Shown one piece after another: positions 13,892 through 46,565 of a stretch of 64,000 bases of DNA (position 1 is the stretch's first letter; every line of letters starts with the position of its first letter). The stretch comes from an uncultured Gammaproteobacteria bacterium (GTDB taxonomy: Bacteria > Patescibacteriota > Patescibacteriia > Magasanikbacterales > GWA2-37-8), in the NCBI GenBank assembly GCA_964355175.1, contig CAYHBZ010000001.1, positions 64,445-128,444 on the forward strand, written 5' to 3'. The position numbers and the translations under genes are program-made. The notes under the pieces were generated by a model, which saw only the letters and a list, made by a program, of their open reading frames with translations, was not told where the DNA came from and did no database searches.

Positions 13892-13959
13892 GTCATTCTG
13901 AGTGAAACGAAGAATCCCTTAAAGTTTGGCAAGGGATCCTTCGCTGCGTTCAGAATGAC
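13892..13959. repeat. palindromic intergenic repeat, copy A (GTCATTCTGAGTG...CGTTCAGAATGAC)
   Basis: near-perfect inverted repeat, ~29-bp arms, directly after the thiI stop; shares termini and internal GAATCCC/GGGATCC core with 5 other loci. Confidence 0.8.
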
Positions 13960-13976
13960 AATAAAAAATATAAAAT

Positions 13977-14579
13977 ATGCCATACGAAGTAGTATTTGAT
14001 ATTGAAACCCAAAATACCTTTGCTGAAGTAAACAACGATTTTAAGAAATTAAAAATTTCGGTTGTTTCTATTTATCGTAGCGATACCGACGCCTATGAAA
14101 GCTTTACGGAGAGTGAGCTCAGTCGCCTGTGGCCAATTCTTGAGAAATCCAACCGTATCATCGGTTTCAACAGCGAACACTTTGATGTGCCGGTGTTGAA
14201 CAACTATTATTTAGGTGACCTTTCACAGTTACCGCACCTAGATATCATGAAAGAAGTGAGAAGTAGCCTAGGTATTCGCCTCAAACTTTCTAGCATCGCC
14301 GAAGCTACTCTGGATAATGTCACGAAAAGCGCGGACGGTCTCGCCGCTATTCGTTGGTGGAAAGAAGGAAAAATTGATGAAATTAAAAAATATTGTGAGC
14401 AGGATGTGCGCGTGACCAAAGAATTGTATGATTTTGGTGTTACCAACAAACAGCTTTTTTACAAAAATCTTACTGGTGAAATTCTGCCCTTTGCCGTAAA
14501 TTTCGCGAAACCGGAAAAACCCCTCAACGCCAGTGGCGCTCCGGCTAACGCCAATATCAATTATACTTTGCCTTTTTAA
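13977..14579 (+). CDS. DEDD-type 3'-5' exonuclease (DnaQ/RNase T-like fold)
   Basis: VFDIETQ (Exo I D-x-E), FNSEHFDVPVL (Exo II), C-terminal YCEQD (Exo III-like). Confidence 0.5.
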   Translation: MPYEVVFDIETQNTFAEVNNDFKKLKISVVSIYRSDTDAYESFTESELSRLWPILEKSNRIIGFNSEHFDVPVLNNYYLGDLSQLPHLDIMKEVRSSLGIRLKLSSIAEATLDNVTKSADGLAAIRWWKEGKIDEIKKYCEQDVRVTKELYDFGVTNKQLFYKNLTGEILPFAVNFAKPEKPLNASGAPANANINYTLPF

Positions 14580-14580
14580 T

Positions 14581-14982
14581 ATGTTTAGTATTCGCCGCGA
14601 AACTGATTATGCCATCAAGCTGTTAAAAGCTTTGAGCCAATCAAAAAGGGACACGGTGATGTCTTTAAATAAAATTTCCAAAAATACAAAAATTTCTTTT
14701 TTGTTTTTACAAAAAATTGCCCGCAAATTACGCCTAGCAGGCTTAATTGAAGCGCACCAAGGAGTGGAGGGTGGGTATCGTCTTAAAATTGAATCCAAAA
14801 AAATCTCTCTTAAAAAAATAATCGAAGCTACCGAAGGGAAATGTTGTATAATTGCTTGTAATAATGAAAAAAAATTAGATTGCTGTCCGGGAGATTCCAG
14901 CACCCCTTCTCAAAAAAAATTAATAAAAATTAATAAAAAAATTGTTAAAATTCTAGATCAGACCAAACTTAGCCAAATATAA
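14581..14982 (+). CDS. Rrf2-family transcriptional regulator (IscR/NsrR-like)
   Basis: N-terminal wHTH (RRETDYAIKLLKALS...ISKNTKIS..FLQKIARKLRLAGLIEAHQGVEGGYRL); C-terminal Cys cluster CCIIAC...C; start moved to ATG 14581 to avoid overlap. Confidence 0.7.
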   Translation: MFSIRRETDYAIKLLKALSQSKRDTVMSLNKISKNTKISFLFLQKIARKLRLAGLIEAHQGVEGGYRLKIESKKISLKKIIEATEGKCCIIACNNEKKLDCCPGDSSTPSQKKLIKINKKIVKILDQTKLSQI

Positions 14983-14984
14983 TT

Positions 14985-16193
14985 ATGATACCAAAACCAA
15001 AGAAAATTAAAGAAATATATTTGGACCACGCCGCTACTACTTATACCGACCCACAGGTAGTAAAGGCGATGTTACCTTACTTTACCGAAATTTATGGCAA
15101 CCCCTCGGCTTTATACCACAAAGGAATAGAAGCAAACGGTGCGCTAAATGATGCCCGGCGCACTGTTTCCAAGCTAATCGGCGCCTTGCCGGAAAATATT
15201 ATTTTTACTGCCGGCGGAAGTGAATCGGATAATTTGGCAATTTATGGAATCGCTGAGGCATATAGTGACAAAGGGAAACATATTATCACCACGGCTATTG
15301 AACATCATGCCGTCTCACATCCTTTTGAGGATCTAAAAAAACAAGGATGGGAAGTCACTTACCTAAAAGTAGATGAGGAAGGATTTGTAGATATAAATGA
15401 ATTTAAGAAAGCTTTACGCCCAGATACTGTTTTGGTTTCTGTAATGTATGCCAACAATGAGATTGGTACTGTCGAGCCAATTAGTGAAATTGGTCGTGAA
15501 ATTTTAAAATACCGCAAAGATAATAATACCGCCTATCCATATTTTCATACCGACGCCTGTCAGGCCGCGGAGTATTTATCACTTGATGTAGAAAAATTGC
15601 ACACAGACCTGATGACAATCAACGGTAGTAAAATTTATGGACCAAAAGGAATTGGTATACTATATGTACGCCGTGGTGTAAAAATTAAGCCACAAATAGT
15701 AGGTGGTGGCCAAGAGCGCCATTTGCGCGCCGGCACGGAAAATGTTCCTGCTATCATAGGTTTTGCCAAAGCTCTAGAGCTGGCCCAAGAAAATGGATCC
15801 AAAGAAAATGCTCGCCTGACAAAACTTACCGAATATTTTTTAAAAGAATTGGAAGAAAAAATTCCAAAAATAAAATTAAATGGCCCGCCGATTGGACCAG
15901 AGCGTTTGCCCAACAACCTAAACATTGCCTTTGAGGATGTAGAAGGGGAGGCGCTGTTGCTATATTTAGATGAGTATGGCATCATGTGCTCCAATGGTAG
16001 CGCTTGCACCAGCGAATTGGTAGAGCCCTCACATGTGCTCACTGCCATGGGACTGAGCCCCAAGCTAGCTCAAAGCAGTATTCGCTTTACTCTGGGACAC
16101 AACACCGCAAAAGATGACATTGATTATGTGATGAAATATTTGCCCGAAATAGTTCAAGGATTGCGGGAAATTAATAAAATAAATTCCAAATAA
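14985..16193 (+). CDS. cysteine desulfurase (NifS/IscS-like, class V aminotransferase)
   Basis: PLP-fold; SGSESDNLAI; active-site loop SNGSACTS with catalytic Cys. Confidence 0.85.
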   Translation: MIPKPKKIKEIYLDHAATTYTDPQVVKAMLPYFTEIYGNPSALYHKGIEANGALNDARRTVSKLIGALPENIIFTAGGSESDNLAIYGIAEAYSDKGKHIITTAIEHHAVSHPFEDLKKQGWEVTYLKVDEEGFVDINEFKKALRPDTVLVSVMYANNEIGTVEPISEIGREILKYRKDNNTAYPYFHTDACQAAEYLSLDVEKLHTDLMTINGSKIYGPKGIGILYVRRGVKIKPQIVGGGQERHLRAGTENVPAIIGFAKALELAQENGSKENARLTKLTEYFLKELEEKIPKIKLNGPPIGPERLPNNLNIAFEDVEGEALLLYLDEYGIMCSNGSACTSELVEPSHVLTAMGLSPKLAQSSIRFTLGHNTAKDDIDYVMKYLPEIVQGLREINKINSK

Positions 16194-16196
16194 TAT

Positions 16197-16520
16197 ATGA
16201 GTGACAATAATGTGCGTGTTTGCTGTGGGATGACCTGCGGCGTGATGGGAGCCGGTAAAATCATGAGAAAAATAGAAGCTGAAACTGGAGTCAAGCAAGG
16301 TGAACATGATGACAAGACAGACTTGGCTTATTGCACCTGTACTGGCAATTGCCATGTGGCGCCCAGTGTGATGGTAAATGGAAATTTTATTCACGAAGCT
16401 AAAGAAGAAACTATTATGTCCGAAATTGAAGAAACCGCCAAACAACCAAAACAAGAAACTACAATTTCGGATGCGACGATTGATGAAATTTTGAATAATG
16501 ATTTTCTCAATGATGTCTAA
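16197..16520 (+). CDS. thioredoxin-like [2Fe-2S] ferredoxin (NuoE-like fold)
   Basis: Cys ligand pattern CC-x3-C ... C-x-C-x3-C (VRVCCGMTCG...YCTCTGNCHVAP), typical spacing of Trx-like ferredoxins. Confidence 0.45.
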   Translation: MSDNNVRVCCGMTCGVMGAGKIMRKIEAETGVKQGEHDDKTDLAYCTCTGNCHVAPSVMVNGNFIHEAKEETIMSEIEETAKQPKQETTISDATIDEILNNDFLNDV

Positions 16521-16522
16521 AC

Positions 16523-17176: not shown

Positions 17177-17267
17177 AAGGCCAATAATATTGACAAAAAC
17201 TAAAAACCTTCGAAACTCGGGGGTTTTATTGATTTTAAACGGATAATCTGTTATTATATATAGGATT

Positions 17268-17930: not shown

Positions 17931-17934
17931 TCCT

Positions 17935-19443: not shown

Positions 19444-19450
19444 TTTAAAT

Positions 19451-23613: not shown

Positions 23614-24456
23614 ATGATTGATACCCACTGTCATGTACAATTCAAAGCGTTCAACGCCGATTATGATGCCATCATAAAAAAATGTTTGGCGCAGGGAATG
23701 ACACTTAATTTGGTAAGTACTCAGAGAGATACTAGCGCCAACGCCGTAGAGACCGCGCAGAAATACGATAATGTCTACGCGACTATTGGTCTGCACCCAG
23801 TACATACCTTTGAAACTTTTGTCGATGAAAAAGAAGGCGGCACATTTACTTCGCGTGCTGAAACTTTTGATTATGAGTATTACAAAAATTTAGCGCAAAA
23901 TAAAAAAGTGGTCGGCATAGGGGAGTGCGGCCTGGAACTTTTTCATTTCCCGGAAGGCTATACAAAAGAAGAAGTATTGGCACGACAAAAAGAAGCTTTT
24001 CTTTTACAATACAAACTCGCGCAAGAAATGAACCTGGCCATGTCGATCCATGTCCGCGAAGCCCACGATGAAATGATTGAGATTTTAAAAACATTACCAC
24101 ACCCAATTAGGGCTGTCGTACATTGTTTCACTTCCAATTGGAAACACGCCCAAGAATATTTAAACATGGGAATGTATTTGGGCTTTACCGGCGTCATCAC
24201 CTTTCCACCAAAAAAATCTAATCCACAAATTCAATTGGATTTATTGGAAGTAGTAAAAAATATTCCAGTCGATCGCATGGTAATCGAAACCGACGCACCA
24301 TACTTGGCACCAAACGCCTACAGAGGACAAAGATGCGAACCGTGGATGGTAGTAGAAGTAAATAAAAAAATTGCTGAGGTAAAAAATATGGGATTAGAAG
24401 AGGTGGCTGAATACACACACAATAATGCCGCTAAGCTATTTAATATTCCTCTATAA
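23614..24456 (+). CDS. TatD-family metal-dependent hydrolase (DNase)
   Basis: MIDTHCHVQF N-terminal HxH motif and TIM-barrel metal ligands (GECGLE, HCF, ETDAPY). Confidence 0.8.
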   Translation: MIDTHCHVQFKAFNADYDAIIKKCLAQGMTLNLVSTQRDTSANAVETAQKYDNVYATIGLHPVHTFETFVDEKEGGTFTSRAETFDYEYYKNLAQNKKVVGIGECGLELFHFPEGYTKEEVLARQKEAFLLQYKLAQEMNLAMSIHVREAHDEMIEILKTLPHPIRAVVHCFTSNWKHAQEYLNMGMYLGFTGVITFPPKKSNPQIQLDLLEVVKNIPVDRMVIETDAPYLAPNAYRGQRCEPWMVVEVNKKIAEVKNMGLEEVAEYTHNNAAKLFNIPL

Positions 24457-24464
24457 AGGAACAA

Positions 24465-24561
24465 GGGCGGCAAAGGTATCTCCTGAACGGCTTATGAGCC
24501 CACAGGCGAGCTGCCTGAGGCCTCACGGCCGAAGAAAGTGAAGGAGTTACCTTTGCCGCCC
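24465..24561 (+). other. GC-rich ~97-nt structured element (closing stem ~18 bp plus internal hairpins), candidate small RNA or protein-binding site
   Basis: GGGCGGCAAAGGUAUCUCC pairs with GGAGUUACCUUUGCCGCCC; internal CAGGC/GCCUG and UGAGGCCUCA palindromes; lies between the tatD stop and the atp promoter; no U-tract. Confidence 0.3.
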
Positions 24562-24613
24562 GTCCACCATGCAGGATAGCCGTAAACTTTATCCCCAAAA
24601 TTTTAAACCAGAC

Positions 24614-24642
24614 TTGACCAAACCCCCAAAATTTAGTAAAAT
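24614..24642 (+). promoter_or_regulatory. sigma70-like promoter TTGACC-17-TAAAAT for the atp operon
   Basis: good hexamers with 17-nt spacer ~18 nt upstream of the atpZ-like ATG. Confidence 0.5.
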
Positions 24643-24659
24643 AATGCCGTTCACAATTT

Positions 24660-24929
24660 ATGTCAGAAAACCGCGAACTTAAGCCAAAAAACATCGAAAG
24701 GAAGTACTACCTTTTTGCCTTTAAGATCATTGGTGATTTTGGAGCCACGATAGCCGTGCCGGTAGTTATTTCCGCTATAGTTGGCCAAAAATTAGATGAT
24801 ATTTGGCACACCAGACCACTTATGCTCGTGATATTTATGGTCATTTCGGCCATATTAAGCGGGTATCTGATCTATAAAAAATCAAAGATTTACGGCCAAG
24901 AATTTCAGGACCTGGATAAAAAACAATAA
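24660..24929 (+). CDS. AtpZ/AtpI-like small membrane protein (ATP synthase protein I)
   Basis: 2-TM 89-aa protein first in the atp operon. Confidence 0.45.
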   Translation: MSENRELKPKNIERKYYLFAFKIIGDFGATIAVPVVISAIVGQKLDDIWHTRPLMLVIFMVISAILSGYLIYKKSKIYGQEFQDLDKKQ

Positions 24930-24935
24930 AAAATT

Positions 24936-25715
24936 ATGGAAATTCACATACCAACATTAGCGCCGGAAACTCTCTTCCATATTGGAAGCCTTCCAGTCAC
25001 CAACACCATGATCAATGTATGGTTGGCGATGGCTATATTTTTGGTAGTCGGAATTATCATCAAGAACCAACTTTCATTACGCCCTGGCAAATTTCAAAAT
25101 TTCTTTGAATACATTCTGGAAATGCTGATGGGTTATTTTGATCAAGTAACTGGAGACCGAAAAAAGACTTTGCGCTTTATGCCAATTGTCGGTACGGTCT
25201 TCTTTTTTATTTTACTTTCCAACTGGCTCGGACTTTTGCCTGGCACCGGCAGTATCACTTATAATCACGCTATGATCTTGCGTCCGGCCAACACCGATCT
25301 GAATCTTACTATCGCGATGGCACTAGTAGCGGTGGTTTCTTCCCATCTATTTGGTTTGTTTACTGTTGGTATTTTTACACATTTAAATAAGTTCATTCAA
25401 ATTGGCACCTTTTTTAAAAGTTTTAAAAAAGGTCCGGTTGGTGTTTTCACCGCCATCATTGAAATGGGTGTCGGTTTGATTGAAATTATTTCTGAAATGG
25501 CCAAGGTGTTATCATTGTCTTTGCGTTTATTTGGTAACATTTTTGCCGGCGAAGTTTTAATTTCAGTTATCAGCGGTTTGGTTAGCGCACTGGTGCCAGC
25601 ACCGTTTATGATGCTTGAACTTTTGGTCGGTTTAATTCAAGCAAGTGTATTTACGATGTTGACCCTGGTGTATCTCACCGTGATGACCGCTGCACCACAC
25701 GCAGACGAACATTAA
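24936..25715 (+). CDS. atpB: F0F1 ATP synthase subunit a
   Basis: LSLRLFGNIFAGEVL with essential Arg; 5-6 TM. Confidence 0.85.
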   Translation: MEIHIPTLAPETLFHIGSLPVTNTMINVWLAMAIFLVVGIIIKNQLSLRPGKFQNFFEYILEMLMGYFDQVTGDRKKTLRFMPIVGTVFFFILLSNWLGLLPGTGSITYNHAMILRPANTDLNLTIAMALVAVVSSHLFGLFTVGIFTHLNKFIQIGTFFKSFKKGPVGVFTAIIEMGVGLIEIISEMAKVLSLSLRLFGNIFAGEVLISVISGLVSALVPAPFMMLELLVGLIQASVFTMLTLVYLTVMTAAPHADEH

Positions 25716-25762
25716 TTATTTATTCATTGATATTTAAAAATAAATATCATAACACAAACATT

Positions 25763-25984
25763 ATGGATCACGAATCTATGTTGGTGATGGCCAAAGGTTT
25801 GACAATGGCTATCGGTGGTATGTTCCCAGCTTTGGCTATCGGCAAAATCGTAGCTACTGCCATGGAAGCGATCGGACGCAATCCAGAATCTGCTGGAAAA
25901 TCTTTCGTACCGATGTTGCTTGGTGCCGCTTTTGCGGAAGCTATTGCTATCTACTCTTTGGTAGTAGTATTCACATTGAAATAG
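25763..25984 (+). CDS. atpE: F0F1 ATP synthase subunit c
   Basis: hairpin proteolipid, GRNPE loop, conserved carboxylate helix 2; the ORF track starts at TTG 25727, ATG 25763 gives a typical 73-aa c subunit. Confidence 0.8.
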   Translation: MDHESMLVMAKGLTMAIGGMFPALAIGKIVATAMEAIGRNPESAGKSFVPMLLGAAFAEAIAIYSLVVVFTLK

Positions 25985-26012
25985 TTCAATCCGCCAGGTT
26001 ATTGCGCATACT

Positions 26013-26071
26013 GTCATCCCGAGCATGGCGAGGGATCTTACAAAAGATTCCTCACATTCGTTCGGAATGAC
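26013..26071. repeat. palindromic intergenic repeat, copy B (GTCATCCCGAGCA...TTCGGAATGAC)
   Basis: inverted repeat between atpE and atpF. Confidence 0.8.
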
Positions 26072-26119
26072 AAAGTAATAAAAATAATCTGGCCCATTTG
26101 AAAAATTTCTAAATATATT

Positions 26120-26689
26120 ATGACTTTTACTAATATCGCATACGCTTCTGAAACAGCTGAAAAAACTAACACTACCGAAGAAGGTGTTGCCAATGACAGT
26201 GTTTTGGCTAGTCTTGGGATTAATGGTACTTTGTTTGTAGCTCAATTGGTGAACTTTACTTTGGTTGCTCTAATTTTATGGTTCTTGATTCTAAAACCAC
26301 TTACCAAAAAAATGTCCGAACGCCAGAAAATGATTGATGACAGCATCGACAATGCCAAAAAAATTCAAGACAACCTCAACAAGAGCGAAAAAGAATATCA
26401 GACCCGTATTGATCAAGCTAAAGTAGAATCCAATAAACTTCTAGAAAAAGCCGCAAACGAATCCGAAGTGATGGTAGAAGAAGCCAAAACTAATGCCAAG
26501 ACTGAAATCGAACGCCTAGTATCACAAGCTCGCGACAGCATTAAAGCAGAAAAAGAAACTATGCAGGTGCAACTCAAAGAAGAAACTGCAAACTTTGTGG
26601 TTTTGGCACTCGAAAAAATCTTGGGTGAAAAAGTAAATGACACTTCTGACAAAAAATTAATTGATGAAGTTTTGAAAAAATTGAAATAA
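26120..26689 (+). CDS. atpF: F0F1 ATP synthase subunit b
   Basis: single N-terminal TM followed by a long charged helix. Confidence 0.75.
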   Translation: MTFTNIAYASETAEKTNTTEEGVANDSVLASLGINGTLFVAQLVNFTLVALILWFLILKPLTKKMSERQKMIDDSIDNAKKIQDNLNKSEKEYQTRIDQAKVESNKLLEKAANESEVMVEEAKTNAKTEIERLVSQARDSIKAEKETMQVQLKEETANFVVLALEKILGEKVNDTSDKKLIDEVLKKLK

Positions 26690-26710
26690 AATAGAAAATA
26701 AAGTTAAAGT

Positions 26711-27097
26711 ATGGCAAAAAATACGCCGAAAATTTACGCTGCTGCCTTATTGAAAAGTATTGTTGGATTATCTGATAAGAACTTGAGCACAACCCTAAAA
26801 AACTTTGTCGCTTTGGTAGCTCGCGAACACAAACTCAAACAGATGCCGAGAATTATCAATGAGTTTGTGCGCCTCGCCAAAAAAGAAGAGGGGATACAAG
26901 AGATAGAAATCCAGACGGCTAGAAAATTGGACGAAAAAACAATTGAAAAAATAAAACATATTTTCGGAAAAGATACAGAGGCCACGACTGAAATAGATGA
27001 AAGCCTACTCGGTGGAGTAAAGATAAAAACCGGTGATAAAATTCTCGACGGCAGCCTCAAAACCCAATTAAATAAATTAAAACAAACTCTAATCTAG
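26711..27097 (+). CDS. atpH: F0F1 ATP synthase subunit delta (short OSCP)
   Basis: C-terminal [26 protein letters not shown] signature; operon position. Confidence 0.7.
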
Positions 27098-27101
27098 TAA
27101 T

Positions 27102-28592
<1,491 letters not shown>

Positions 28593-28597
28593 TAATT

Positions 28598-28645
28598 TGT
28601 CATCTTGAACGAAGTGAAAGATCTTTCGTTACACTCAAGATGACA
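28598..28645. repeat. palindromic intergenic repeat, copy C (shorter, TGTCATCTTGAACG...CTCAAGATGACA)
   Basis: near-perfect inverted repeat between atpA and atpG. Confidence 0.75.
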
Positions 28646-28655
28646 CTAAATAACT

Positions 28656-29597
28656 ATGGCCGTAAATACCAAAGTAATTAAACGCCGCATCAAATCCGTC
28701 TCTTCCACCAAGAAGATTACCAAAGCGATGGAAATGGTAGCGGCCGCCAAAATGCGCAAAGCGGTAGATACTGCCTTGCGTACCCGCACCTATGCCAAAT
28801 TGGCTTGGGATATTTTGGTAGATCTATCCAAAACAGCGGATGTAAAAATTCCATTACTGGAAGTACGCCCGGTAAAAAATGTTTTGGTAATTTTAGTTAC
28901 TTCCAACCGCGGCTTGTGCGGCAGTTTCAATTCCAATATTATTAAAAAAACTTCCATTCAATTAAAAAATCCAGATAACTTGGGTATACAGAATATTGAA
29001 GGAAAGATTTTAAAAACCGATAAAGTAAATATTGATGTACTCGGTATCGGCAAAAAGGGTGCGGAATTTGCTAAAAGAAATAATTATAATTTGGTCGCAT
29101 CTTTTAATACTTTTTCCGATACTCCAAGTCTAAATGATATTTTACCAATTAGTCAGATGGTAATAGATCAATACTCCAAGAAAAAATATGACAAAGTAGT
29201 GGTGGCTTATACCGCTTTCAAATCTGCCATTTCTCAAACTGCTAAATTAAAACAAGTATTACCAATTTCTCCGATTGATCTGGAAAGTATAATAGGGGAT
29301 GCTTCAGTAGAAAAAACTCTACTTGAAGAAGAAAAATCCGAAGACAGATTATTTGAACCAAATCCACAAGAAGTTTTAGAAACTATTTTACCACGCTTGG
29401 TAGAAACAGAATTACTACAAGCCACGCTAGAATCCAGCGCCTCCGAACACAGTGCTCGTATGATGGCCATGCGCAGTGCCTCTGATGCCGCATCTGATAT
29501 GATCTCTGAGCTGAACCTCAATTTCAATAAAGCCCGCCAAGCCGCCATCACGCAAGAAATTGCCGAGATTGCCGGTGGAGCCGCCGCTCTAGAATAA
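28656..29597 (+). CDS. atpG: F0F1 ATP synthase subunit gamma
   Basis: N-terminal IKRRIKSVSSTKKITKAMEMVAAAKMRKA and C-terminal ITQEIAEI. Confidence 0.9.
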   Translation: MAVNTKVIKRRIKSVSSTKKITKAMEMVAAAKMRKAVDTALRTRTYAKLAWDILVDLSKTADVKIPLLEVRPVKNVLVILVTSNRGLCGSFNSNIIKKTSIQLKNPDNLGIQNIEGKILKTDKVNIDVLGIGKKGAEFAKRNNYNLVASFNTFSDTPSLNDILPISQMVIDQYSKKKYDKVVVAYTAFKSAISQTAKLKQVLPISPIDLESIIGDASVEKTLLEEEKSEDRLFEPNPQEVLETILPRLVETELLQATLESSASEHSARMMAMRSASDAASDMISELNLNFNKARQAAITQEIAEIAGGAAALE

Positions 29598-29606
29598 TTA
29601 ATAACT

Positions 29607-29662
29607 GTCATTCCGAACGCAGTGAGGAATCTTAGAAGATCCCTAGTTACACTCGGGATGAC
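29607..29662. repeat. palindromic intergenic repeat, copy D (GTCATTCCGAACGCAGTGAGGAATC...ACTCGGGATGAC)
   Basis: inverted repeat between atpG and atpD. Confidence 0.8.
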
Positions 29663-29675
29663 AATACTAAACTAA

Positions 29676-31073
<1,398 letters not shown>

Positions 31074-31076
31074 TCC

Positions 31077-31106
31077 GTCATTCTGAGCGTAGCAAAGAAT
31101 CCCTTT
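31077..31106. repeat. half copy (left arm only) of the palindromic repeat family, copy E
   Basis: GTCATTCTGAGCGTAGCAAAGAATCCCTTT directly after the atpD stop; no right arm. Confidence 0.65.
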
Positions 31107-31122
31107 CACTCAAACAAAAATT

Positions 31123-31557
31123 ATGCCAAAAATAAACCTAAAAATCGTTACACCGGAAAAAGTAATTTACGAAAATAATCAGGTAGACCAAATTACTATT
31201 CCGACTACCACCGGTGAAATCACCGTACTACCAAACCATGTACCCCTGGTTAGTATTTTGAAATCCGGTGAGATGATTTTTAAAGAAAATGGACAAGAAA
31301 ATTTTTTCGCGCTGTCTGGTGGATTTTTGGAAGTGAAAGAACACAGTGAAGTATTGATCCTGGCCGATAATGTAGAGCGCGCTCATGAAATTAATATTGA
31401 AAAAGCTGAGGCGGCGAAAGCAAGAGCCGAGGTACAGATGAGTGAACTCAAGAATACAGAAGATGTAGACTTTGCTAGATTGCAGGCGGTGATTGATAGG
31501 GAAGCGAATAGATTGAGAGTGGGGAATAAGTACAGAAAACTTCCTAAGAGTGAATAA
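31123..31557 (+). CDS. atpC: F0F1 ATP synthase subunit epsilon
   Basis: beta-sandwich N-terminus (VTPEKVIY...TGEITVLPNHVP) plus helical C-terminus. Confidence 0.8.
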   Translation: MPKINLKIVTPEKVIYENNQVDQITIPTTTGEITVLPNHVPLVSILKSGEMIFKENGQENFFALSGGFLEVKEHSEVLILADNVERAHEINIEKAEAAKARAEVQMSELKNTEDVDFARLQAVIDREANRLRVGNKYRKLPKSE

Positions 31558-31564
31558 ACTCAAC

Positions 31565-31598
31565 AAAAAAACAATGGTACGAGACCATTGTTTTTTTG
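31565..31598 (+). terminator. rho-independent terminator ending the atp operon
   Basis: aaaaaaacaatggt-acgag-accattgttttttt. Confidence 0.75.
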
Positions 31599-31626
31599 TT
31601 GAAAAAGGGATAAAATATATTTTATT

Positions 31627-32571
31627 ATGACTACAAATTTTATGACTAAAAAACAAGTCTTAATTCTAGAAGATCTCGGTATTACAAAAGCAGACTTTGA
31701 AAAAATCGCTGCAAAAGCGAATTTACCGTTTGATATCATATGGGAAAAAGATTTATCAGACACAGAGTCGGTTGAAGCAATTATCACTGTTAAAACAAAA
31801 TTTGATAAACAATTGTTTGCTAAATACCCCAATGTAAAAGTAATTACAGTCGCATTTACAGGCTACGATTGCGTTGATATTGAAATTTGTCGGCAAAATG
31901 GCATTGCTGTCTACAATGTCCCTGCTTATTCCACAAATTCTGTAGCAGAACTCACAGTTGGTTTGGCAATATCATTATTAAGAGAAATTCCGGCTGCAAA
32001 CAATATAGTCTGTTCTGGAAAATGGAATATGAAACCAGACCAAGAACTTTCTGGTAAAACAGTAGGTATTCTTGGCACAGGTACAATAGGAATAATGGCA
32101 GCAAATTTCTTCAAAACTTTTGGCTGTAAAATCGTAGGTTGGTCAAAAACAGAAAAAGAAGAGTTTAAAACGCTTGGCAATTATATCTCAGATCTACAAG
32201 AATTTTTCTCTATTTCAGATATTGTTTCTATACACCTCCCGCTGAATAACGAGACAAAAGGAATGATCGGAGAGAAAGAACTTGCTTCCATGCAAACAAC
32301 TGCCTATCTTATTAATACAGCGAGAGGGTCTATCATAAATGAAGAGGCTCTAATTAAAGTATTAAGCGAAAATAAAATTGCCGGAGCAGCCCTAGATGTA
32401 TTTGCTCAAGAACCTATCAATCCAGACAGTCGGCTTTTGCAGCTCCAGAATGTTATTTTAACACCGCACATTGCATACAAAACAGTGGAAGCATTGGAAC
32501 GAAGAGCTGAAATTACAATAAGAAATATTGCTAATTTTATCAATGACAACAAAACAAATAGAGTTAATTAG
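31627..32571 (+). CDS. D-isomer-specific 2-hydroxyacid dehydrogenase (NAD-binding; PGDH/GDH-like)
   Basis: GILGTGTIGIMAA Rossmann motif; catalytic R..E..H region (TARGSII...E, TPHIA). Confidence 0.75.
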   Translation: MTTNFMTKKQVLILEDLGITKADFEKIAAKANLPFDIIWEKDLSDTESVEAIITVKTKFDKQLFAKYPNVKVITVAFTGYDCVDIEICRQNGIAVYNVPAYSTNSVAELTVGLAISLLREIPAANNIVCSGKWNMKPDQELSGKTVGILGTGTIGIMAANFFKTFGCKIVGWSKTEKEEFKTLGNYISDLQEFFSISDIVSIHLPLNNETKGMIGEKELASMQTTAYLINTARGSIINEEALIKVLSENKIAGAALDVFAQEPINPDSRLLQLQNVILTPHIAYKTVEALERRAEITIRNIANFINDNKTNRVN

Positions 32572-32605
32572 GTGGCAATTTTTGGCAGTGACTTAAAAAA
32601 ATAAT

Positions 32606-32857
32606 ATGAATGTTACAAAAAAACACGATTTTATACCTAAAGAAAAAAGAAACAAAATAGTAAATGAGATAATTACTTACTATAAAACAAAAATGGATCA
32701 AGAAATCGGCGTAGTGGTCGCTGAAGATATCCTAGATTTTTTCTTAGAAGCTATCGGAAATGATATTTATAATAAAGCGATTAGTGATTCAAAAAATACT
32801 ATTAAAAATGGTTTTGAGATTATTGAAGTCGATTTAGATTTATTACTAAATAAATGA
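32606..32857 (+). CDS. hypothetical small protein
   Basis: 83-aa ORF in a block with A-ending codon bias; no recognisable motif. Confidence 0.3.
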   Translation: MNVTKKHDFIPKEKRNKIVNEIITYYKTKMDQEIGVVVAEDILDFFLEAIGNDIYNKAISDSKNTIKNGFEIIEVDLDLLLNK

Positions 32858-33243
32858 TTAAATTTAATAAAAAATATTTCATAGCCGCAATAATATTATT
32901 TATAATAGAAATTTTTATCGCCCTATTTATACATGATAGAATAGTTAGGCCTTACATAGGGGATATGCTGGCGGTAATCTTAATTTTCTGTTTTATAAAA
33001 AGCTTTATTAATATTAGATCTATGTATATAGCAATTTCTACTTTGGTCTTTGCTTACTTTATAGAACTACTGCAATATTTTAACTTACTTGATTATATTG
33101 ATTTAAAAGGCAATAAAGTTGCCGCGATACTGCTAGGTGGGTCATTTGACTGGATTGATTTGGTTAATTATACTTTAGGAATAGTAATTGTTATTACATT
33201 TGAAAAAATGATTTTAAAACTAACTAAAAATAAGCTCTCTTAA
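32854..33243 (+). CDS. hypothetical membrane protein (3-4 TM)
   Basis: hydrophobic helices; start overlaps the upstream stop (ATGA). Confidence 0.35.
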   Translation: MIKFNKKYFIAAIILFIIEIFIALFIHDRIVRPYIGDMLAVILIFCFIKSFINIRSMYIAISTLVFAYFIELLQYFNLLDYIDLKGNKVAAILLGGSFDWIDLVNYTLGIVIVITFEKMILKLTKNKLS

Positions 33244-43066: not shown

Positions 43067-43130
43067 AAAACCTCTGTTATTATATTAGCAAGAAACTCTT
43101 TGCGAGTTTATTTTATTTCTATTTTGACCT

Positions 43131-43595
43131 ATGGACAACAATATCCAGTACCTAACGAAAGAAAGCTTACAAAACCTAAAGACCGAACTGGAAACTTTAC
43201 GCAATAAAACCATTCCGGATATCGCTCGCCGTATCGATGAAGCCAAGCAACAAGGCGATCTCTCGGAAAATGCCGAATATCACCAGGCTAGAGAAGATAT
43301 GAGCTGGACACAGGGCCGAGTACAAGAGCTAGATCAGCTGATCCAGAATGCCCAAATCATCGAAAAAAGTGTAGACCATGACACCGTGAGCATTGGATCT
43401 ACAGTGACTGTAAAAATAAATGGAAAAACCAAGGACTATACTATTGTTGGTCCACAAGAAATTGATCCGTCCAAAGGCTATATCTCCAACGAATCTCCGC
43501 TAGGACAAGCCTTTCTCAAACATAAAGTAAAAGACAAAATAGAAGTAATTACCCCGGCTGGAAAAAATGTTTACGAAATAATTTTGATAAAATAA
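43131..43595 (+). CDS. greA: transcription elongation factor GreA (paralogue 2)
   Basis: GDLSENAEYHQAREDM acidic finger; C-terminal FKBP-like domain. Confidence 0.8.
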   Translation: MDNNIQYLTKESLQNLKTELETLRNKTIPDIARRIDEAKQQGDLSENAEYHQAREDMSWTQGRVQELDQLIQNAQIIEKSVDHDTVSIGSTVTVKINGKTKDYTIVGPQEIDPSKGYISNESPLGQAFLKHKVKDKIEVITPAGKNVYEIILIK

Positions 43596-43602
43596 ATTAA
43601 AT

Positions 43603-43637
43603 AAAAAATCCTCCGATTGAGTCGGAGGATTTTTTAT
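43603..43637. terminator. bidirectional rho-independent terminator between convergent genes
   Basis: aaaaaatcctccgac-ttga-gtcggaggatttttt. Confidence 0.75.
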
Positions 43638-43644
43638 TTAATTT

Positions 43645-44511
43645 TTAATCACAGCTTTTACGACTGGAGTCATCGAGATTTCTTGGGAGAATCAAGGTTC
43701 TCATATTTAGCTTCAAAGATTCAATACAAATTTTCGGACTATTTTTATATTCAGCATTAAAAATTGGCTTGTTTTGCTTGGTAAATACGGACAGCTGATC
43801 ACATTCATGATACACATGACATTGTTCGTTTACCGTGAGATCAAAATAATCAACCAAATCTCCGGCCAACTCAACAGCATTTTTGAGCGCTACCGTAAGA
43901 CCACGCTTGTGTGCCTCCTGCGAAATTTGACGATTAAAATTTAATTGATCAGCTTTAGTTAAAGCAAAACCTGTTTTGTTGGAATACCCATCTACATTAT
44001 CTGGTTCCACACCATCACAACCTTTAGCGACCGCCAGATCAAGACGGGAGATGTTCACATCCATCACATTTTTTGCGCGGATGTCCAGCCATTTTTCACC
44101 ATTCCAACCATCGAGAGGTTTGCCAAGTGAATTGGAGTTGAACTTTTGATAATCAGGTCGCCATTTTTCAGCTGATCCGGCGGAAAAATAACATAAAACT
44201 TTTTTACCGGACGCTTTGAGGCTAGAGATAATCTCGGGAGAAGTGTCAAAAAGGTCAATATCATAAACGTCAACCGGATAACTTTGATTAATATTTCCAG
44301 TTAGTTGCCATTGCCAGGTGGTGGTAACGATTGGGCGGTACCAATTTCCCTGAATCGGTGCGGAGACCGGCTGGGCGAGAGAGGTGGACATTGCAGGCTT
44401 GGCAGCTGTTTTTTTTGCCGTTTTTTTGGCCTTAGCGGCCAAAGTCATGGTCGGTATGACCAAAAAAGCTATAATTACTAGGAAAACAGCTCTTTTTGCG
44501 TAGTTTTTCAT
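43645..44511 (-). CDS. secreted glycoside hydrolase family 114-like (PelA-type endo-alpha-1,4-polygalactosaminidase fold)
   Basis: signal peptide plus Lys/Ala-rich linker; TIM-barrel motifs VYDIDLFD, LCYFSAGS, GCDGVEPDNVDGY typical of GH114/TM1410-like proteins. Confidence 0.5.
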   Translation of the reverse strand: MKNYAKRAVFLVIIAFLVIPTMTLAAKAKKTAKKTAAKPAMSTSLAQPVSAPIQGNWYRPIVTTTWQWQLTGNINQSYPVDVYDIDLFDTSPEIISSLKASGKKVLCYFSAGSAEKWRPDYQKFNSNSLGKPLDGWNGEKWLDIRAKNVMDVNISRLDLAVAKGCDGVEPDNVDGYSNKTGFALTKADQLNFNRQISQEAHKRGLTVALKNAVELAGDLVDYFDLTVNEQCHVYHECDQLSVFTKQNKPIFNAEYKNSPKICIESLKLNMRTLILPRNLDDSSRKSCD

Positions 44512-44590
44512 TGATTAAAATGCTTAAGATTAGATTAATTCATTTAGCATACCATAATTTTGACTTTTTATCCAAAAACAGTTATAATCA

Positions 44591-46108
44591 TTGGGAATTA
44601 TAATAATTTTTATGATCGAAGAAATCGAAGAATACCAGACCCGTTTGGGGCGTTTAAATACCCTAAAAGAAGCGGGGATAGATGCCTACCCAGCCCAGAG
44701 TGAAAAAGGGGCTAATTTAGCTGATGCCAAAAATTTACCGGTTGATTCCGCCGTGACATCTTCAGGCCGCCTGGTCGCTATGCGCGATATGGGCAAACTT
44801 TGTTTCGCTCACTTGAAAGACGCTTCCGGAAAAATGCAATTGGCGGTATCCGAAAAAGAACTCGGTAAAGACAGATATAAATTTTTTGTAAAAAACTTTG
44901 ACCTCGGGGATTTTATTTGGGTTTCCGGAAATATTTTTGTTACTCATGCTGGTGAAACTTCTATTTTGGTAAAAGATTTTAAAATTCTTTCCAAAGCACT
45001 TTTGCCATTGCCAGAAAAATTCCACGGCCTAACTGATATTGAGATCCGTTATCGCAAACGCTATTTGGATCTGCTTGGCAACGAACAATCTATGGAGATT
45101 GCCAAGATGCGTTCCAATGTGGTGCGTGAATTGCGCAATTATTTTGATGCCAAAGGTTTTTATGAAGTAGAAACTCCAGTACTGCAAACTTTATATGGCG
45201 GTGCCTTGGCCAAACCATTTGAAACTCACCATAATGCTTTGGATATTCCATTGTATTTGCGTATTGCTCCGGAACTTTATTTGAAAAGATTAATTGTTGG
45301 TGGTTTTGAAAAAGTTTACGAAATTGCAAAATGTTTCCGTAACGAGGGAATAGATAATAATCACAATCCTGAATTTACTCAAATTGAATTCTATTGGGCT
45401 TACGCTGATTACACCATGCTCATGGATATGGTAGAAGATTATTTGCCACGCCTTATTAAAGCTGCCGGCAAAGAATTGAAATTAAATATCGCGGGACAAG
45501 AAGTAGATTTTACTGGTCCATACCCACGCGTATCAATGCGTGATTTGATCAAACAATACGCCAAGATTGACATTGAAGATTATCCAACTGATGAGGCAAT
45601 GTATAAAAAAGCAATTGAATTGAAGGTGGAAGATACCAAACCAGGTACTGGACGCGGCAAATTGATTGATGAAATTTATAAAGTTTACGCTCGACCATAT
45701 ATCGTCAATCCAATTTTCATGATTGATCACCCAGTAGAGCTTTCACCTTTGGCCAAAAAGAAAGTCGGTGACCCGCGCTATGTAGAGCGTTTCCAATTAC
45801 TCTGTGTTGGTGGTAATGAACTCTGTAATGCTTTTTCTGAGCTCAACGATCCGCTCGATCAAGAAGAAAGATTCAAAGAACAAACTCGTTTGGAAGCGGC
45901 AGGGGATGACGAGAGTATGCCATACGACGAAGACTTTGTGACCGCCCTCAAACACGGCATGCCACCAACTGGCGGTCTTGGCATGGGCATTGATCGCTTG
46001 ATAAAATTACTAGCGGACGCTGATAATCTAAAAGAAGTAATTTTGTTCCCAACAATGAGACCAGAAGGTGGAAAAGAAAAAGCAGAACCAGAAAAACCAA
46101 AAAAATAA
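44591..46108 (+). CDS. lysS: lysyl-tRNA synthetase, class II
   Basis: OB anticodon-binding N-domain; class II motifs (FRNEG, GGLGMGIDRL). Confidence 0.9.
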   Translation: MGIIIIFMIEEIEEYQTRLGRLNTLKEAGIDAYPAQSEKGANLADAKNLPVDSAVTSSGRLVAMRDMGKLCFAHLKDASGKMQLAVSEKELGKDRYKFFVKNFDLGDFIWVSGNIFVTHAGETSILVKDFKILSKALLPLPEKFHGLTDIEIRYRKRYLDLLGNEQSMEIAKMRSNVVRELRNYFDAKGFYEVETPVLQTLYGGALAKPFETHHNALDIPLYLRIAPELYLKRLIVGGFEKVYEIAKCFRNEGIDNNHNPEFTQIEFYWAYADYTMLMDMVEDYLPRLIKAAGKELKLNIAGQEVDFTGPYPRVSMRDLIKQYAKIDIEDYPTDEAMYKKAIELKVEDTKPGTGRGKLIDEIYKVYARPYIVNPIFMIDHPVELSPLAKKKVGDPRYVERFQLLCVGGNELCNAFSELNDPLDQEERFKEQTRLEAAGDDESMPYDEDFVTALKHGMPPTGGLGMGIDRLIKLLADADNLKEVILFPTMRPEGGKEKAEPEKPKK

Positions 46109-46109
46109 T

Positions 46110-46505
46110 ATGTCCAAGGTAATGGTCTTTGGAACATTTGATATTTTACATCCTGGTCATTTGTTTCTACTAAACGAAGCCAAGAAGATGGGGAATAGCC
46201 TCACGGTTGTAATAGCTCGCGATAAGACAGTAACGGCAGTAAAAAATATCACGACCCAAAATGATGAACAAACTAGACTAAAAAATCTCACTGATCTAAA
46301 TATCGCCGACAAAGTCATTCTAGGAAATCCTGGCGATAAATATCAGGTAGTGAGAGATGAATCGCCAGATGTAATTGCGCTAGGGTATGACCAAACCGCT
46401 TTTACCGCTGATTTAGAAAAAGTTTTTCCTACTATCAAGATCGTACGATTAAAACCTTACAAAGAAGATATTTATAAAAGTTCAAAATTTAGAAACATAA
46501 AATAA
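46110..46505 (+). CDS. cytidylyltransferase-like nucleotidyltransferase (HxGH family; RibL/FMN adenylyltransferase- or PPAT-like)
   Basis: VFGTFDILHPGH = (T/H)xGH motif; start moved to ATG 46110 just after the lysS stop. Confidence 0.5.
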   Translation: MSKVMVFGTFDILHPGHLFLLNEAKKMGNSLTVVIARDKTVTAVKNITTQNDEQTRLKNLTDLNIADKVILGNPGDKYQVVRDESPDVIALGYDQTAFTADLEKVFPTIKIVRLKPYKEDIYKSSKFRNIK

Positions 46506-46506
46506 T

Positions 46507-46565
46507 GTCATTCCGAGTGCAACGAGGAATCTTTACCAAGATCCCTCACATTCGTTCGGGATGAC
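46507..46565. repeat. palindromic intergenic repeat, copy F (GTCATTCCGAGTGCAACGAGGAATC...CGTTCGGGATGAC)
   Basis: inverted repeat directly after the 46110-46505 stop; its last ATGAC supplies the ATG used by the ORF-track start 46561. Confidence 0.8.

What the first reader, a model, noticed from the sequence alone, without database searches (positions are those of the whole stretch)
13892..46565. Family of ~50-70-bp palindromic intergenic repeats (GTCATYCYGA...TCRGRATGAC), five full copies and one half copy
Six loci (13892-13959, 26013-26071, 28598-28645, 29607-29662, 31077-31106, 46507-46565) share the same termini (GTCAT[T/C]C[C/T]GA..., ...CG[T/G]TC[A/G]G[A/G]ATGAC) and an internal GAATCCC/GGGATYC core. 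Each copy is a near-perfect inverted repeat predicted to fold into a ~20-29-bp hairpin. Every copy sits 0-10 nt after the stop codon of a + strand gene (thiI, atpE, atpA, atpG, atpD, the HxGH nucleotidyltransferase). Copy E keeps only the left arm. Copy F ends in ATGAC and supplies the spurious ATG start of the Ham1-Nudix ORF. The mix of sequence drift, a half copy and one compact 48-bp copy suggests a proliferating MITE/REP-like element co-opted as terminator or attenuator, or as an mRNA-stabilising or processing hairpin. I do not recognise it as a named repeat family.
Basis: seen in the sequence. Interest (0 to 1): 0.72.

Follow-up and report, generated by a model that had tools for sequence, protein, structure and literature searches.

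The report
Ssn-type hairpin repeat doublets, recently inserted
The six intergenic palindromes are real and are recently inserted copies of a mobile hairpin repeat found in many bacterial phyla; elsewhere the same repeat wraps the gene of a small nuclease (Ssn family, described in 2025) that cuts single-stranded DNA, so this is a new variant of a known system rather than a terminator or a new kind of element.

Summary
Five full copies and one decayed copy sit at the stated coordinates, all between + strand genes of a Candidatus Magasanikbacteria (CPR) genome.

The unit is not the 50-70-bp palindrome. It is a ~25-nt hairpin: (C/T)GTC tag, ATYCY, tandem G·A, a 2-bp stem with a GNA loop, RGRAT, then C. 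Covariation in 92 distinct arms supports this fold. Each "copy" is an inverted doublet of two such arms.

Relatives with 83-95% identical AtpG lack copies B, C, D and E. These are therefore recent insertions, not conserved regulators. B lies in the apical loop of a conserved atpE-atpF hairpin. None has a U-tract.

The arm motif occurs in at least a dozen phyla. In three genomes a ~93-aa GIY-YIG gene sits exactly in the doublet loop. Of 80 such genes fetched by protein similarity alone, 41 have arms on both sides and 69 on at least one. The protein is 46% identical to the NTS-flanked gonococcal homologue of SsnA.

This matches the Ssn/SRM system (Chenal 2025) and CGTC-tagged REPs (Di Nocera 2013). 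However, the arms fail the published SRM search string (0/92). No ssn gene lies in the window. Mobilisation by Ssn is inferred, not shown.

The parts
13891..13960 (.). Copy A: inverted doublet. Left arm 13892-13916 (+; tag CGTC). Spacer 18 nt. Right arm 13935-13959 (-). Lies 34 nt after the stop of ORF 12724-13857 and 17 nt before the ATG at 13977.
   Evidence: I1; -32.2 kcal/mol, z -6.1. The left arm GTCATTCTGAGTGAAACGAAGAATC is identical to arms on a Planktothrix plasmid (L210).
26012..26072 (.). Copy B: inverted doublet. Left arm 26013-26037 (+; ATCCC/GGGAT). Right arm 26046-26071 (-; ATTCC/GGAAT, 4-nt loop). Lies between atpE and atpF.
   Evidence: (z -7.8). Absent in relatives: the atpE|atpF gap is 135 nt here against 56-59 nt in L201 and L203.
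25985..26102 (+). Native atpE-atpF stem-loop that encloses copy B. The outer stem 25985-25989 pairs with 26098-26102. The inner stem 25993-26003 pairs with 26083-26093. B sits in its apical loop.
   Evidence: The whole region folds at -49.8 kcal/mol, z -7.9. Relatives L201 and L203 have the same UUCAA...UUGAA framework with a plain 7-10-bp apical hairpin and no repeat.
28598..28645 (.). Copy C: compact doublet. Arms 28599-23 (+) and 28620-44 (-) overlap on the central AGATCT. Lies between atpA and atpG.
   Evidence: I4; z -4.6. Relatives have only 2-4 nt between atpA and atpG, against 63 nt here.
29606..29663 (.). Copy D: inverted doublet. Left arm 29607-29631 (+; ATTCC/GGAAT). Right arm 29638-29662 (-; ATCCC/GGGAT). 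Lies between atpG and atpD. Its arm order is opposite to that of A, B and F.
   Evidence: (z -4.8). Absent in L201, L203 and L205 (95% AtpG identity): gap 35-40 nt against 102 nt here.
31076..31115 (.). Copy E: decayed doublet. The left arm 31077-31101 is intact apart from G18 changed to A. It is followed by a right-arm remnant, ...CTTTCACTCAAAC. Lies between atpD and atpC.
   Evidence: (no fold). Relatives have an 8-nt gap against 49 nt here.
46506..46566 (.). Copy F: inverted doublet. Left arm 46507-46531 (+). Right arm 46540-46565 (-). Starts 1 nt after the stop of ORF 46068-46505. Its terminal ATGAC creates an in-frame upstream ATG (46561) for the next ORF, whose likely start is 46579.
   Evidence: (z -5.5).

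Best explanation
The six loci are inverted doublets of a ~25-nt hairpin repeat. The repeat belongs to the CGTC/TGTC-tagged REP class and is a variant of the Ssn-related motif (SRM).

Each arm reads: tag (C/T)GTC; then stem A-T, T-A, Y-R, C-G, Y-R; then two sheared G·A pairs; then R-Y and C-G closing a GNA loop; then an unpaired C.

Shown here:
1. The arm hairpin is maintained by compensatory changes.
2. The doublets were inserted recently into tiny intergenic spacers of the atp operon in this Magasanikbacteria lineage. One went into the loop of a native hairpin.
3. In this genome the doublet, not the single arm, looks like the unit that multiplied. All five full copies pair one G11 arm with one A11 arm, in either orientation.
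4. In other genomes the same arms tightly enclose an Ssn-family GIY-YIG gene.

Taken from the literature (PMC11893778): Ssn enzymes bind such hairpins only as single-stranded DNA, on one strand, and cut a few nucleotides 5' of the tag. They act on neither dsDNA nor RNA.

Inferred:
- The doublets are non-autonomous, REPIN-like derivatives of an arm-ssn-arm element. An Ssn nuclease spreads them in trans on transiently single-stranded DNA, with the tags-out geometry placing one cut outside each end.
- That nuclease would be encoded elsewhere in this genome, or was formerly present.
- Where Ssn is present, the copies also mark single-stranded DNA for cleavage.
- The long RNA hairpin in the atp transcript is a tolerated by-product, not the selected function.
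For: Arm hairpin:
- In 92 distinct arms, 95.3% of cells pair. There are 97 double-sided changes against 32 +/- 5 in shuffles (0/500 reach the observed value). Slid registers pair only 18-50%.
- In arms found with a pattern that did not force complementarity, pair 6-22 is T-A 21, C-G 19, mismatch 2. Pair 8-20 is T-A 27, C-G 14, T·G 1.
- In window copies B, D and F the two arms differ (ATCCC/GGGAT against ATTCC/GGAAT), yet each arm is self-complementary.

Recent insertion:
- Relatives with AtpG 83-95% identical have gaps of 56-59, 2-4, 35-40 and 8 nt where the window has 135, 63, 102 and 49 nt.
- The relatives' loci (about 45 kb fetched, partly overlapping) contain no arm.

Link to Ssn:
- A GIY-YIG ORF (PF01541, E 5e-17) sits exactly in the doublet loop in L005, L039 and L019.
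- Of 80 loci fetched by protein similarity alone, 41 have arms on both sides within 150 bp and 69 on at least one side. Arm density is 6.2 per kb near the gene against 1.6 per kb elsewhere in the same loci.
- It is the only gene family recurrently next to arms in the pattern-ascertained loci. No RAYT was found.
- The protein is 46% identical over its full length (E 9e-26) to the single gonococcal homologue, which is itself flanked by canonical NTS repeats.
- Y7, Y17 and E64 are invariant in alignment A2. They correspond to the catalytic Y6, Y17 and E64 mutated in SsnA (PMC11893778).
- The closest solved structure is the UPF0213 protein 1ZG2.

Breadth and horizontal transfer:
- The arm pattern hits at least 120 stretches in at least a dozen phyla.
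- Ssn homologues are 67-75% identical across Saccharibacteria, Chloroflexota, Nitrospirota and Deltaproteobacteria.

Matching features reported as critical for SsnA: the tag GTC and the C after the palindrome.
Against: - No ssn gene lies in the 64-kb window. The rest of the genome could not be read, so a resident enzyme is unproven.
- Mobilisation of SRMs by Ssn has never been demonstrated. The source paper only proposes it.
- The arms fail the published degenerate SRM string (0/92 arms; no repeat locus in the window matches).
- The enzyme clade is only 46% identical to a characterised one, so its specificity for this variant is untested.
- Nearest-neighbour DNA energies for single arms are weak (-1 to -5 kcal/mol, mostly not better than shuffles). 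The model lacks sheared G·A and GNA bonuses. The long inter-arm hairpin would compete with the arm hairpins.
- No target-site duplication or sharp insertion boundary could be defined.
- Only about half of the ssn genes are flanked tags-out. Neisseria is tags-in.
Confidence: 0.66

Rival explanations
1. Homing-target model. The doublets are spread by some other host or unknown process. The ssn gene is a selfish homing-type endonuclease gene that invades the loops of pre-existing doublets. It is therefore a passenger, not the engine of repeat proliferation.
For: - The gene sits precisely in the doublet loop, with the arms serving as short flanking homology.
- Short empty doublets vastly outnumber ssn-bearing ones: 3 of 120 pattern-ascertained loci have an adjacent ssn.
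- A different ORF, of CDGSH type, is also found nested between arms in L022.
- No ssn lies in the window.
Against: - Characterised Ssn enzymes cut single-stranded DNA just outside the hairpin tag, not in the loop where the gene sits (PMC11893778).
- The spacers between arms vary in sequence and length from -4 to 95 nt, so they make a poor homing site.
- This model leaves the spread of the doublets themselves unexplained.
Confidence: 0.15
2. Co-opted RNA element. The long hairpins act in the transcript as terminators, attenuators, RNase processing sites or stabilisers that tune expression of atp and neighbouring genes.
For: - Strong RNA hairpins with z -4.6 to -7.8.
- All copies are intergenic and inside or after + strand transcription units.
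- B extends a conserved native atpE-atpF hairpin to -49.8 kcal/mol, which could alter its effect.
Against: - The copies are absent from relatives with 83-95% identical AtpG.
- No copy has a U-tract or a terminator call, while the genome uses canonical terminators elsewhere.
- The copies lie in both orientations.
- Covariation preserves the intra-arm hairpin, at the cost of mismatches in the long hairpin.
- E has decayed without replacement.
- There is no Rfam match.
Confidence: 0.1
3. Classical REP/REPIN system mobilised by a RAYT (IS200/IS605-type HUH tyrosine transposase), or a MITE derived from a DDE insertion sequence.
For: The architecture is the same as a REPIN: an inverted pair of imperfect palindromes. 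It also occurs in clusters and tandem arrays.
Against: - The tag is (C/T)GTC, not GTAG.
- No RAYT or other transposase family recurs next to the arms in 120 loci.
- Di Nocera et al. likewise found no transposase for CGTC REPs.
- No target-site duplication is seen.
Confidence: 0.04

Closest known systems
NTS/SRM repeats with SsnA (Ssn family, cd10448 GIY-YIG ssDNA nucleases), Neisseria meningitidis and others (Chenal et al. 2025, PMC11893778)
   Same: - A short hairpin repeat with an unpaired HGTC tag, a stem that starts A-T, and a conserved C after the palindrome.
- Hundreds of mostly intergenic copies.
- A ~94-aa single-domain GIY-YIG gene flanked by the repeats: 42% on both sides and 71% on at least one in the paper, against 51% and 86% here.
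- The protein is homologous over its full length, 46% identical.
   Different: - The stem contains two tandem G·A pairs and a GNA triloop.
- The arms fail the published SRM search string.
- Copies here are mostly tags-out inverted doublets, and the gene is nested inside one doublet. The Neisseria locus is tags-in.
- The host is a CPR bacterium.
- No ssn gene was seen in the window.
- No biochemistry exists for this clade.
CGTC-tagged REP superfamily (Di Nocera et al. 2013, PMC3733652), including Neisseria dRS3 and Rickettsia RPE-4 and RPE-6
   Same: - A CGTC or TGTC tag.
- An 8-9-position stem whose first two pairs are A-T and T-A.
- A short unpaired tail.
- Predominantly inverted dimers, often heterodimers.
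- No associated tyrosine transposase.
   Different: - The loop is 3 nt (GNA) rather than 4-5 nt.
- The stem is interrupted by G·A pairs.
- The tail is C followed by CC or TT rather than CCA.
- The distribution is far wider than the five phyla reported.
REP/REPIN-RAYT systems and IS200/IS605
   Same: - Imperfect-palindrome units that act as single-stranded DNA hairpins with a short 5' tag.
- Inverted doublets as the replicative unit.
- The cognate nuclease gene is flanked by the repeats.
   Different: - The enzyme is a GIY-YIG hydrolytic nuclease, not an HUH tyrosine transposase.
- The tag is GTC, not GTAG.
- A strand-transfer mechanism is unknown.

Membership tests
Ssn-related motif (SRM/NTS) repeats | A 20-50-nt imperfect palindrome that forms a hairpin | tested here: met
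   7 pairs, 95.3% of cells paired in 92 arms, 97 double-sided changes against 32 +/- 5 in shuffles. All 11 window arms fit.
Ssn-related motif (SRM/NTS) repeats | An unpaired HGTC tag 5' of the stem and a conserved C immediately 3' of the palindrome (critical for cleavage and binding in PMC11893778) | tested here: met
   The window arms read CGTC or TGTC, then ..., then ATC. C25 is present in 91/92 arms although the pattern allowed T. GTC itself was fixed by the search pattern.
Ssn-related motif (SRM/NTS) repeats | Matches the published degenerate SRM string HGTCWYN(0-2)YYVSBRHN(0-5)WNVSBRGN(0-2)RNCYNB | tested here: not met
   0 of 92 arms match. Only 1 of the 80 ssn loci has any hit. The single window hit (47861-47893) is unrelated to the repeats. 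A control NTS sequence matches.
Ssn-related motif (SRM/NTS) repeats | Physical association with an ssn (single-domain GIY-YIG) gene | tested here: met
   Met for the repeat family: 41/80 ssn genes have arms on both sides and 69/80 on at least one. The gene is nested in L005, L039 and L019. It is homologous to the gonococcal ssnA locus. Not seen within the window itself, and the rest of the genome was not available.
Ssn-related motif (SRM/NTS) repeats | Bound and cut by the cognate Ssn as single-stranded DNA only, in a strand-specific way | not testable with these tools
   This requires biochemistry.
CGTC-tagged REPs (Di Nocera 2013) | A terminal CGTC/TGTC tag, with a stem of 8-9 bp whose first two pairs are A-T and T-A | tested here: met
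   A4-T24 in 92/92 arms and T5-A23 in 91/92. The stem has 9 positions if the two G·A pairs are counted.
CGTC-tagged REPs (Di Nocera 2013) | A loop of 4-5 nt and a 3-nt tail of consensus CCA | tested here: not met
   The loop is G-N-A, 3 nt, with 4 nt in B-right and F-right. The tail is CCC in A and E, and CTT in B, C, D and F.
CGTC-tagged REPs (Di Nocera 2013) | Mostly organised as inverted dimers, with no dedicated tyrosine transposase | tested here: met
   There are 35 distinct tags-out doublets, against 9 tags-facing and 14 tandem neighbours. No RAYT cluster lies near the arms.
GTAG REP / REPIN-RAYT | A GTAG tag and a flanked RAYT gene | tested here: not met
   The tag is GTC. No such gene family lies near the arms.
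MITE | Terminal inverted repeats plus a target-site duplication, and derivation from an IS with a transposase | tested here: inconclusive
   The inverted arms are present. No duplication is recognisable at the four filled-versus-empty sites, but the flanks are AT-rich and diverged. The only candidate parent carries a GIY-YIG nuclease, not a transposase.
Intrinsic terminator | A GC-rich stem followed by a U-tract | tested here: not met
   No repeat copy is among the terminator-like sites in 24000-33000. The copies are followed by A-rich sequence.
Any Rfam family | A score at or above the gathering threshold | tested here: not met
   0 hits in the window and 0 hits in five repeat-rich loci.

The most novel reading that the evidence does not exclude
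This G·A/GNA variant together with its nested ssn gene is an autonomous mobile element driven by a GIY-YIG single-stranded DNA nuclease. It has moved horizontally through more than a dozen phyla, including CPR bacteria. The short doublets are its REPIN-like non-autonomous offspring. On this reading, the filled and empty atp spacers seen here would be comparative evidence that Ssn-related repeats actually transpose, including into hairpin loops. That would supply the long-missing mobilising enzyme for CGTC-tagged REPs.
Probability: 0.4. Interest if true: 0.7.

Novelty: new variant of a known kind. Interest (0 to 1): 0.5.

Why it matters
Di Nocera et al. (2013) found no dedicated enzyme for CGTC-tagged REPs. 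Chenal et al. (2025) linked related hairpins to Ssn nucleases but only speculated that the repeats are mobile.

This window and its relatives add four things:
- Clean filled-versus-empty sites in an essential operon of a CPR bacterium.
- A repeat variant that the published search string misses, yet which is near-identical across distant phyla.
- A compact arm-ssn-arm arrangement, with tags facing outward, that looks like an autonomous unit.
- One insertion into the loop of a pre-existing hairpin, which hints at a target preference.

Practical consequences:
- These arms generate spurious ORFs and false start codons (copy F) and should be masked in annotation.
- The variant offers a new hairpin/enzyme pair for the single-stranded DNA tools proposed for Ssn.

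Tried and rejected
- Rfam at gathering thresholds on the window and on five repeat-rich loci gave nothing.
- A full-text search for arm sequence strings returned only unrelated primers.
- Searches combining GIY-YIG with palindromic/intergenic/mobile terms, 'repetitive extragenic palindromic', 'miniature inverted', REPIN or YhbQ found nothing relevant. The search GIY-YIG plus 'extragenic' finally found the Ssn paper.
- My initial recollection of a link to the 23S rRNA intervening-sequence four-helix-bundle genes was not borne out. The ORFs nested between arms were GIY-YIG, plus one CDGSH-type ORF.
- A RAYT or other transposase association was rejected. GIY-YIG is the only repeat-specific gene cluster in the neighbourhood.
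- The terminator idea was rejected.
- Exact-protein look-ups for AtpD and for one ORF near the left end of the window were not on record. The look-up at the right end returned only a 5.7-kb contig with no further copy. The rest of the 953-kb genome, and hence any resident ssn, could therefore not be examined.
- Single-arm DNA folding energies were uninformative.
- NCBIfam has no specific model for the nuclease.
- Isolated phage genomes hold only distant GIY-YIG relatives, 34-37% identical.
- No target-site duplication could be defined.


Full report
**1. Observation**

The six loci exist as described.
- The exact decamer GTCATYCYGA occurs 11 times in the window, all as arms of these loci.
- With one mismatch allowed there are 17 hits, against 8.9 +/- 2.6 in dinucleotide shuffles. 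None of 100 shuffles reaches 17.
- The five full copies fold as RNA at -19 to -32 kcal/mol, z -4.6 to -7.8. E does not fold.
- All copies lie between + strand ORFs.

Two details in the finding are wrong.
- A and B start 34 and 28 nt after the stop codon, not 0-10 nt.
- E is not a clean half copy. After its intact left arm comes CACTCAA, which aligns with the right arms of C and D.

The remark about F is correct. The ATG at 46561 inside the right arm is in frame with a second ATG at 46579.

**2. Host and insertion history**

AtpG of the window is identical to a protein on a 953,736-bp contig. Its nearest named relatives are Candidatus Magasanikbacteria.

Contigs of relatives with 83-86% identical AtpG (L201-L204) and 95% identical AtpG (L205, GCA_016212605.1) carry the same atp operon but none of the repeats.

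| Spacer | Relatives | Window |
|---|---|---|
| atpE\|atpF | 56-59 nt | 135 nt |
| atpA\|atpG | 2-4 nt | 63 nt |
| atpG\|atpD | 35-40 nt | 102 nt |
| atpD\|atpC | 8 nt | 49 nt |

- The relatives' loci (about 45 kb fetched, partly overlapping) contain no arm at all.
- B, C, D and E are therefore recent lineage-specific insertions.
- In a genome with spacers this short, "right after a stop codon" is simply where an insertion can survive.
- The flanks are AT-rich and diverged, so no target duplication or exact boundary could be defined.
- Copy B lies in the apical loop of a stem-loop that relatives also have between atpE and atpF. The UUCAA...UUGAA frame is conserved, and the composite folds at -49.8 kcal/mol.

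**3. The real unit**

Reading the copies showed that the two arms of B, D and F differ: ATCCC...GGGAT against ATTCC...GGAAT. Each arm is nevertheless complementary to itself.

I tested this on arms from elsewhere.
- In arms found with a pattern that allowed Y and R independently, position 6 pairs with 22 as T-A 21, C-G 19, mismatch 2. Position 8 pairs with 20 as T-A 27, C-G 14, T·G 1.
- In 92 distinct 25-nt arms collected with positions 6-8, 11-17 and 20-22 left free, the structure ...(((((..((...))..))))). gives 95.3% paired cells.
- That structure shows 97 double-sided changes against 32 +/- 5 in shuffles (0/500 reach the observed value). Slid registers pair only 18-50%.
- Positions 9/19 and 10/18 are invariant G/A and A/G. 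Positions 13 and 15 are G and A in 69/92 arms.

From established knowledge of DNA hairpins, this is a stem with tandem sheared G·A pairs capped by a GNA triloop.

Nearest-neighbour DNA energies for single arms are weak. Those parameters omit such motifs, so the support for the arm hairpin is covariation, not energy.

Each "copy" is thus an inverted, tags-out doublet of two hairpin units. All five full window copies combine one G11 arm with one A11 arm. A, B and F lie one way round and C and D the other. This suggests that in this genome the doublet is what multiplied, and that orientation relative to transcription does not matter.

**4. Distribution**

The hits come from Nitrospirota, Chloroflexota, Acidobacteriota, Patescibacteria, Bacteroidota, Bacillota, Planctomycetota, Pseudomonadota, Bdellovibrionota, Gemmatimonadota, Omnitrophota and others. 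They include complete chromosomes and an isolate.
- Paired arms are mostly 60-145 bp apart, with a minority 250-490 bp apart.
- The arm of copy A is identical to arms on a Planktothrix plasmid.
- A further 120 or more IMG/VR contigs carry the motif.

**5. Associated gene**

The 436-487-bp pairs include cases with a ~93-100-aa GIY-YIG ORF (PF01541, E about 1e-16) exactly in the loop. These are L005 (Saccharibacteria), L039 (Gracilibacteria) and a decayed copy in L019 (Cyclobacteriaceae).

I then ran the reverse test on 80 metagenome loci retrieved by protein similarity alone.
- 41 have a forward arm within 150 bp upstream and a reverse arm within 150 bp downstream.
- 69 have at least one arm.
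- Arm termini are 6.2 per kb around the gene, against 1.6 per kb elsewhere in the same loci.
- Among ORFs near arms in the 120 pattern-ascertained loci, this is the only repeat-specific recurrent family. No RAYT or other transposase recurs.
- Homologues that are 67-75% identical occur in Chloroflexota, Nitrospirota, Deltaproteobacteria and Binatia. This points to horizontal transfer.

**6. What is already known**

Di Nocera et al. 2013 (PMC3733652) defined CGTC-tagged REPs by these features:
- a tag of CGTC or TGTC;
- an 8-9-bp stem starting A-T;
- a short tail;
- mostly inverted dimers;
- no dedicated transposase.

The class includes Neisseria dRS3 and Rickettsia RPE-4 and RPE-6.

Chenal et al. 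2025 (PMC11893778) reported the following:
- The ~94-aa GIY-YIG protein SsnA of N. meningitidis binds the hairpin repeat NTS (CGTCATTCCCGCGMAVGCGGGAATCYRG) only as single-stranded DNA and only on one strand.
- It cuts a few nucleotides upstream of the repeat.
- ssn homologues are flanked by Ssn-related motifs: 71% have at least one and 42% have them on both sides.
- The system restricts transformation in Neisseria.
- NTS-ssnA-NTS resembles an IS or a REP/RAYT system, which the authors raise only as a hypothesis.

My GIY-YIG protein is 46% identical over its full length (E 9e-26) to the single gonococcal homologue. That homologue is itself flanked by canonical NTS repeats. Y7, Y17 and E64 are invariant, matching the residues mutated in SsnA. 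The closest solved structure is UPF0213 protein 1ZG2.

**7. Same and different**

The window arms share three features with SRMs: the HGTC tag, the A-T start of the stem, and the C after the palindrome. Those are the positions reported as most critical for SsnA.

They also differ.
- None of the 92 arms, and no repeat locus in the window, matches the published SRM search string. The G·A/GNA interior is the reason.
- The nearest arms around ssn are tags-out in 32 of 80 loci and tags-in in 13. Neisseria is tags-in.
- Loop and tail also differ from the CGTC-REP definition.

I therefore file this as a new variant within the Ssn/SRM and CGTC-REP kind, not as a canonical member.

**8. Mechanism**

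Shown here:
- arm hairpins maintained by compensation;
- recent insertion;
- association of the arms with ssn.

Taken from the literature:
- single-stranded-DNA-specific, tag-proximal cleavage by Ssn enzymes.

Inferred:
- Doublets are non-autonomous derivatives of arm-ssn-arm units.
- They are mobilised in trans on single-stranded DNA.
- The tags-out geometry puts one cut outside each end, on opposite strands.

Open points:
- No ssn gene lies in the window, and the rest of the genome was unreachable.
- The homing-target rival, in which ssn is a passenger of the doublets, is not excluded.

The RNA-function reading is unlikely.
- No copy has a U-tract or a terminator call, whereas canonical terminators exist at 31560-31602, 43594-43644, 7830-7876 and 2486-2542.
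- The copies occur in both orientations.
- Close relatives lack them.
- Covariation favours the arm hairpin over the long hairpin.

**9. Verdict**

The feature is real and is not a chance pattern. It is a new variant, in a new host, of a recently described system. It provides useful comparative evidence for mobility. It is neither a new category of element nor a regulatory element.

Noticed in passing
L191 2890-2975 and 3325-3460; L210 925-985; L010 4104-4228: Tandem arrays of truncated arms lie beside ssn genes or alone. An example is TGTCATCCTGAGCGAAGCACTAA, with a 20-23-nt period and up to 7 units. Only the tag and the 5' half of the hairpin are repeated. Their origin is unexplained.
   Followed up: partly
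L022 5920-6406: A 90-aa ORF with two CDGSH-like motifs, not a GIY-YIG protein, lies between a pair of arms 487 bp apart in a Binatia MAG. Either other cargo can sit in a doublet or these are two separate half sites.
   Followed up: no
L210 (Planktothrix agardhii plasmid NZ_LR882964.1, 18247-19713): An ssn homologue (68.5% identical to the Saccharibacteria protein) with doublets and arm arrays sits between a type IIL MmeI-like restriction-modification gene and DISARM drmA. That is a defence-island context.
   Followed up: no
L211-L330 (IMG/VR contigs): At least 120 viral-collection contigs carry the exact arm pattern. None of the fetched stretches encodes an ssn-like protein. Whether these are real phage genomes or host flanks was not checked.
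   Followed up: partly
L209 (N. gonorrhoeae NZ_CP119142.1, 1881119-1882585): Two 2.17-Mb gonococcal chromosomes are filed as plasmids in PLSDB. In this record the upstream ATG (594) runs into a stop after 6 codons in its own frame, and the ssnA reading frame lacks an obvious ATG. The gonococcal copy may use another start or be damaged.
   Followed up: no
window 31560-31602, 43594-43644, 7830-7876, 2486-2542: Perfect or near-perfect 19-28-nt inverted repeats flanked by A-runs and T-runs look like bidirectional intrinsic terminators. One lies directly after atpC. They are unrelated in sequence to the repeat family.
   Followed up: partly
window 25985-26102; L201 3489-3528; L203 3473-3511: A conserved stem-loop lies between atpE and atpF in this Magasanikbacteria group, with frame UUCAA...UUGAA. 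It is plausibly a native mRNA element for the c-subunit gene. In the window its loop hosts copy B.
   Followed up: partly
window 1-64000: Rfam found no tRNA or other RNA family in the 64 kb. Nearly all long ORFs between about 4.8 kb and 54 kb are on the + strand.
   Followed up: no
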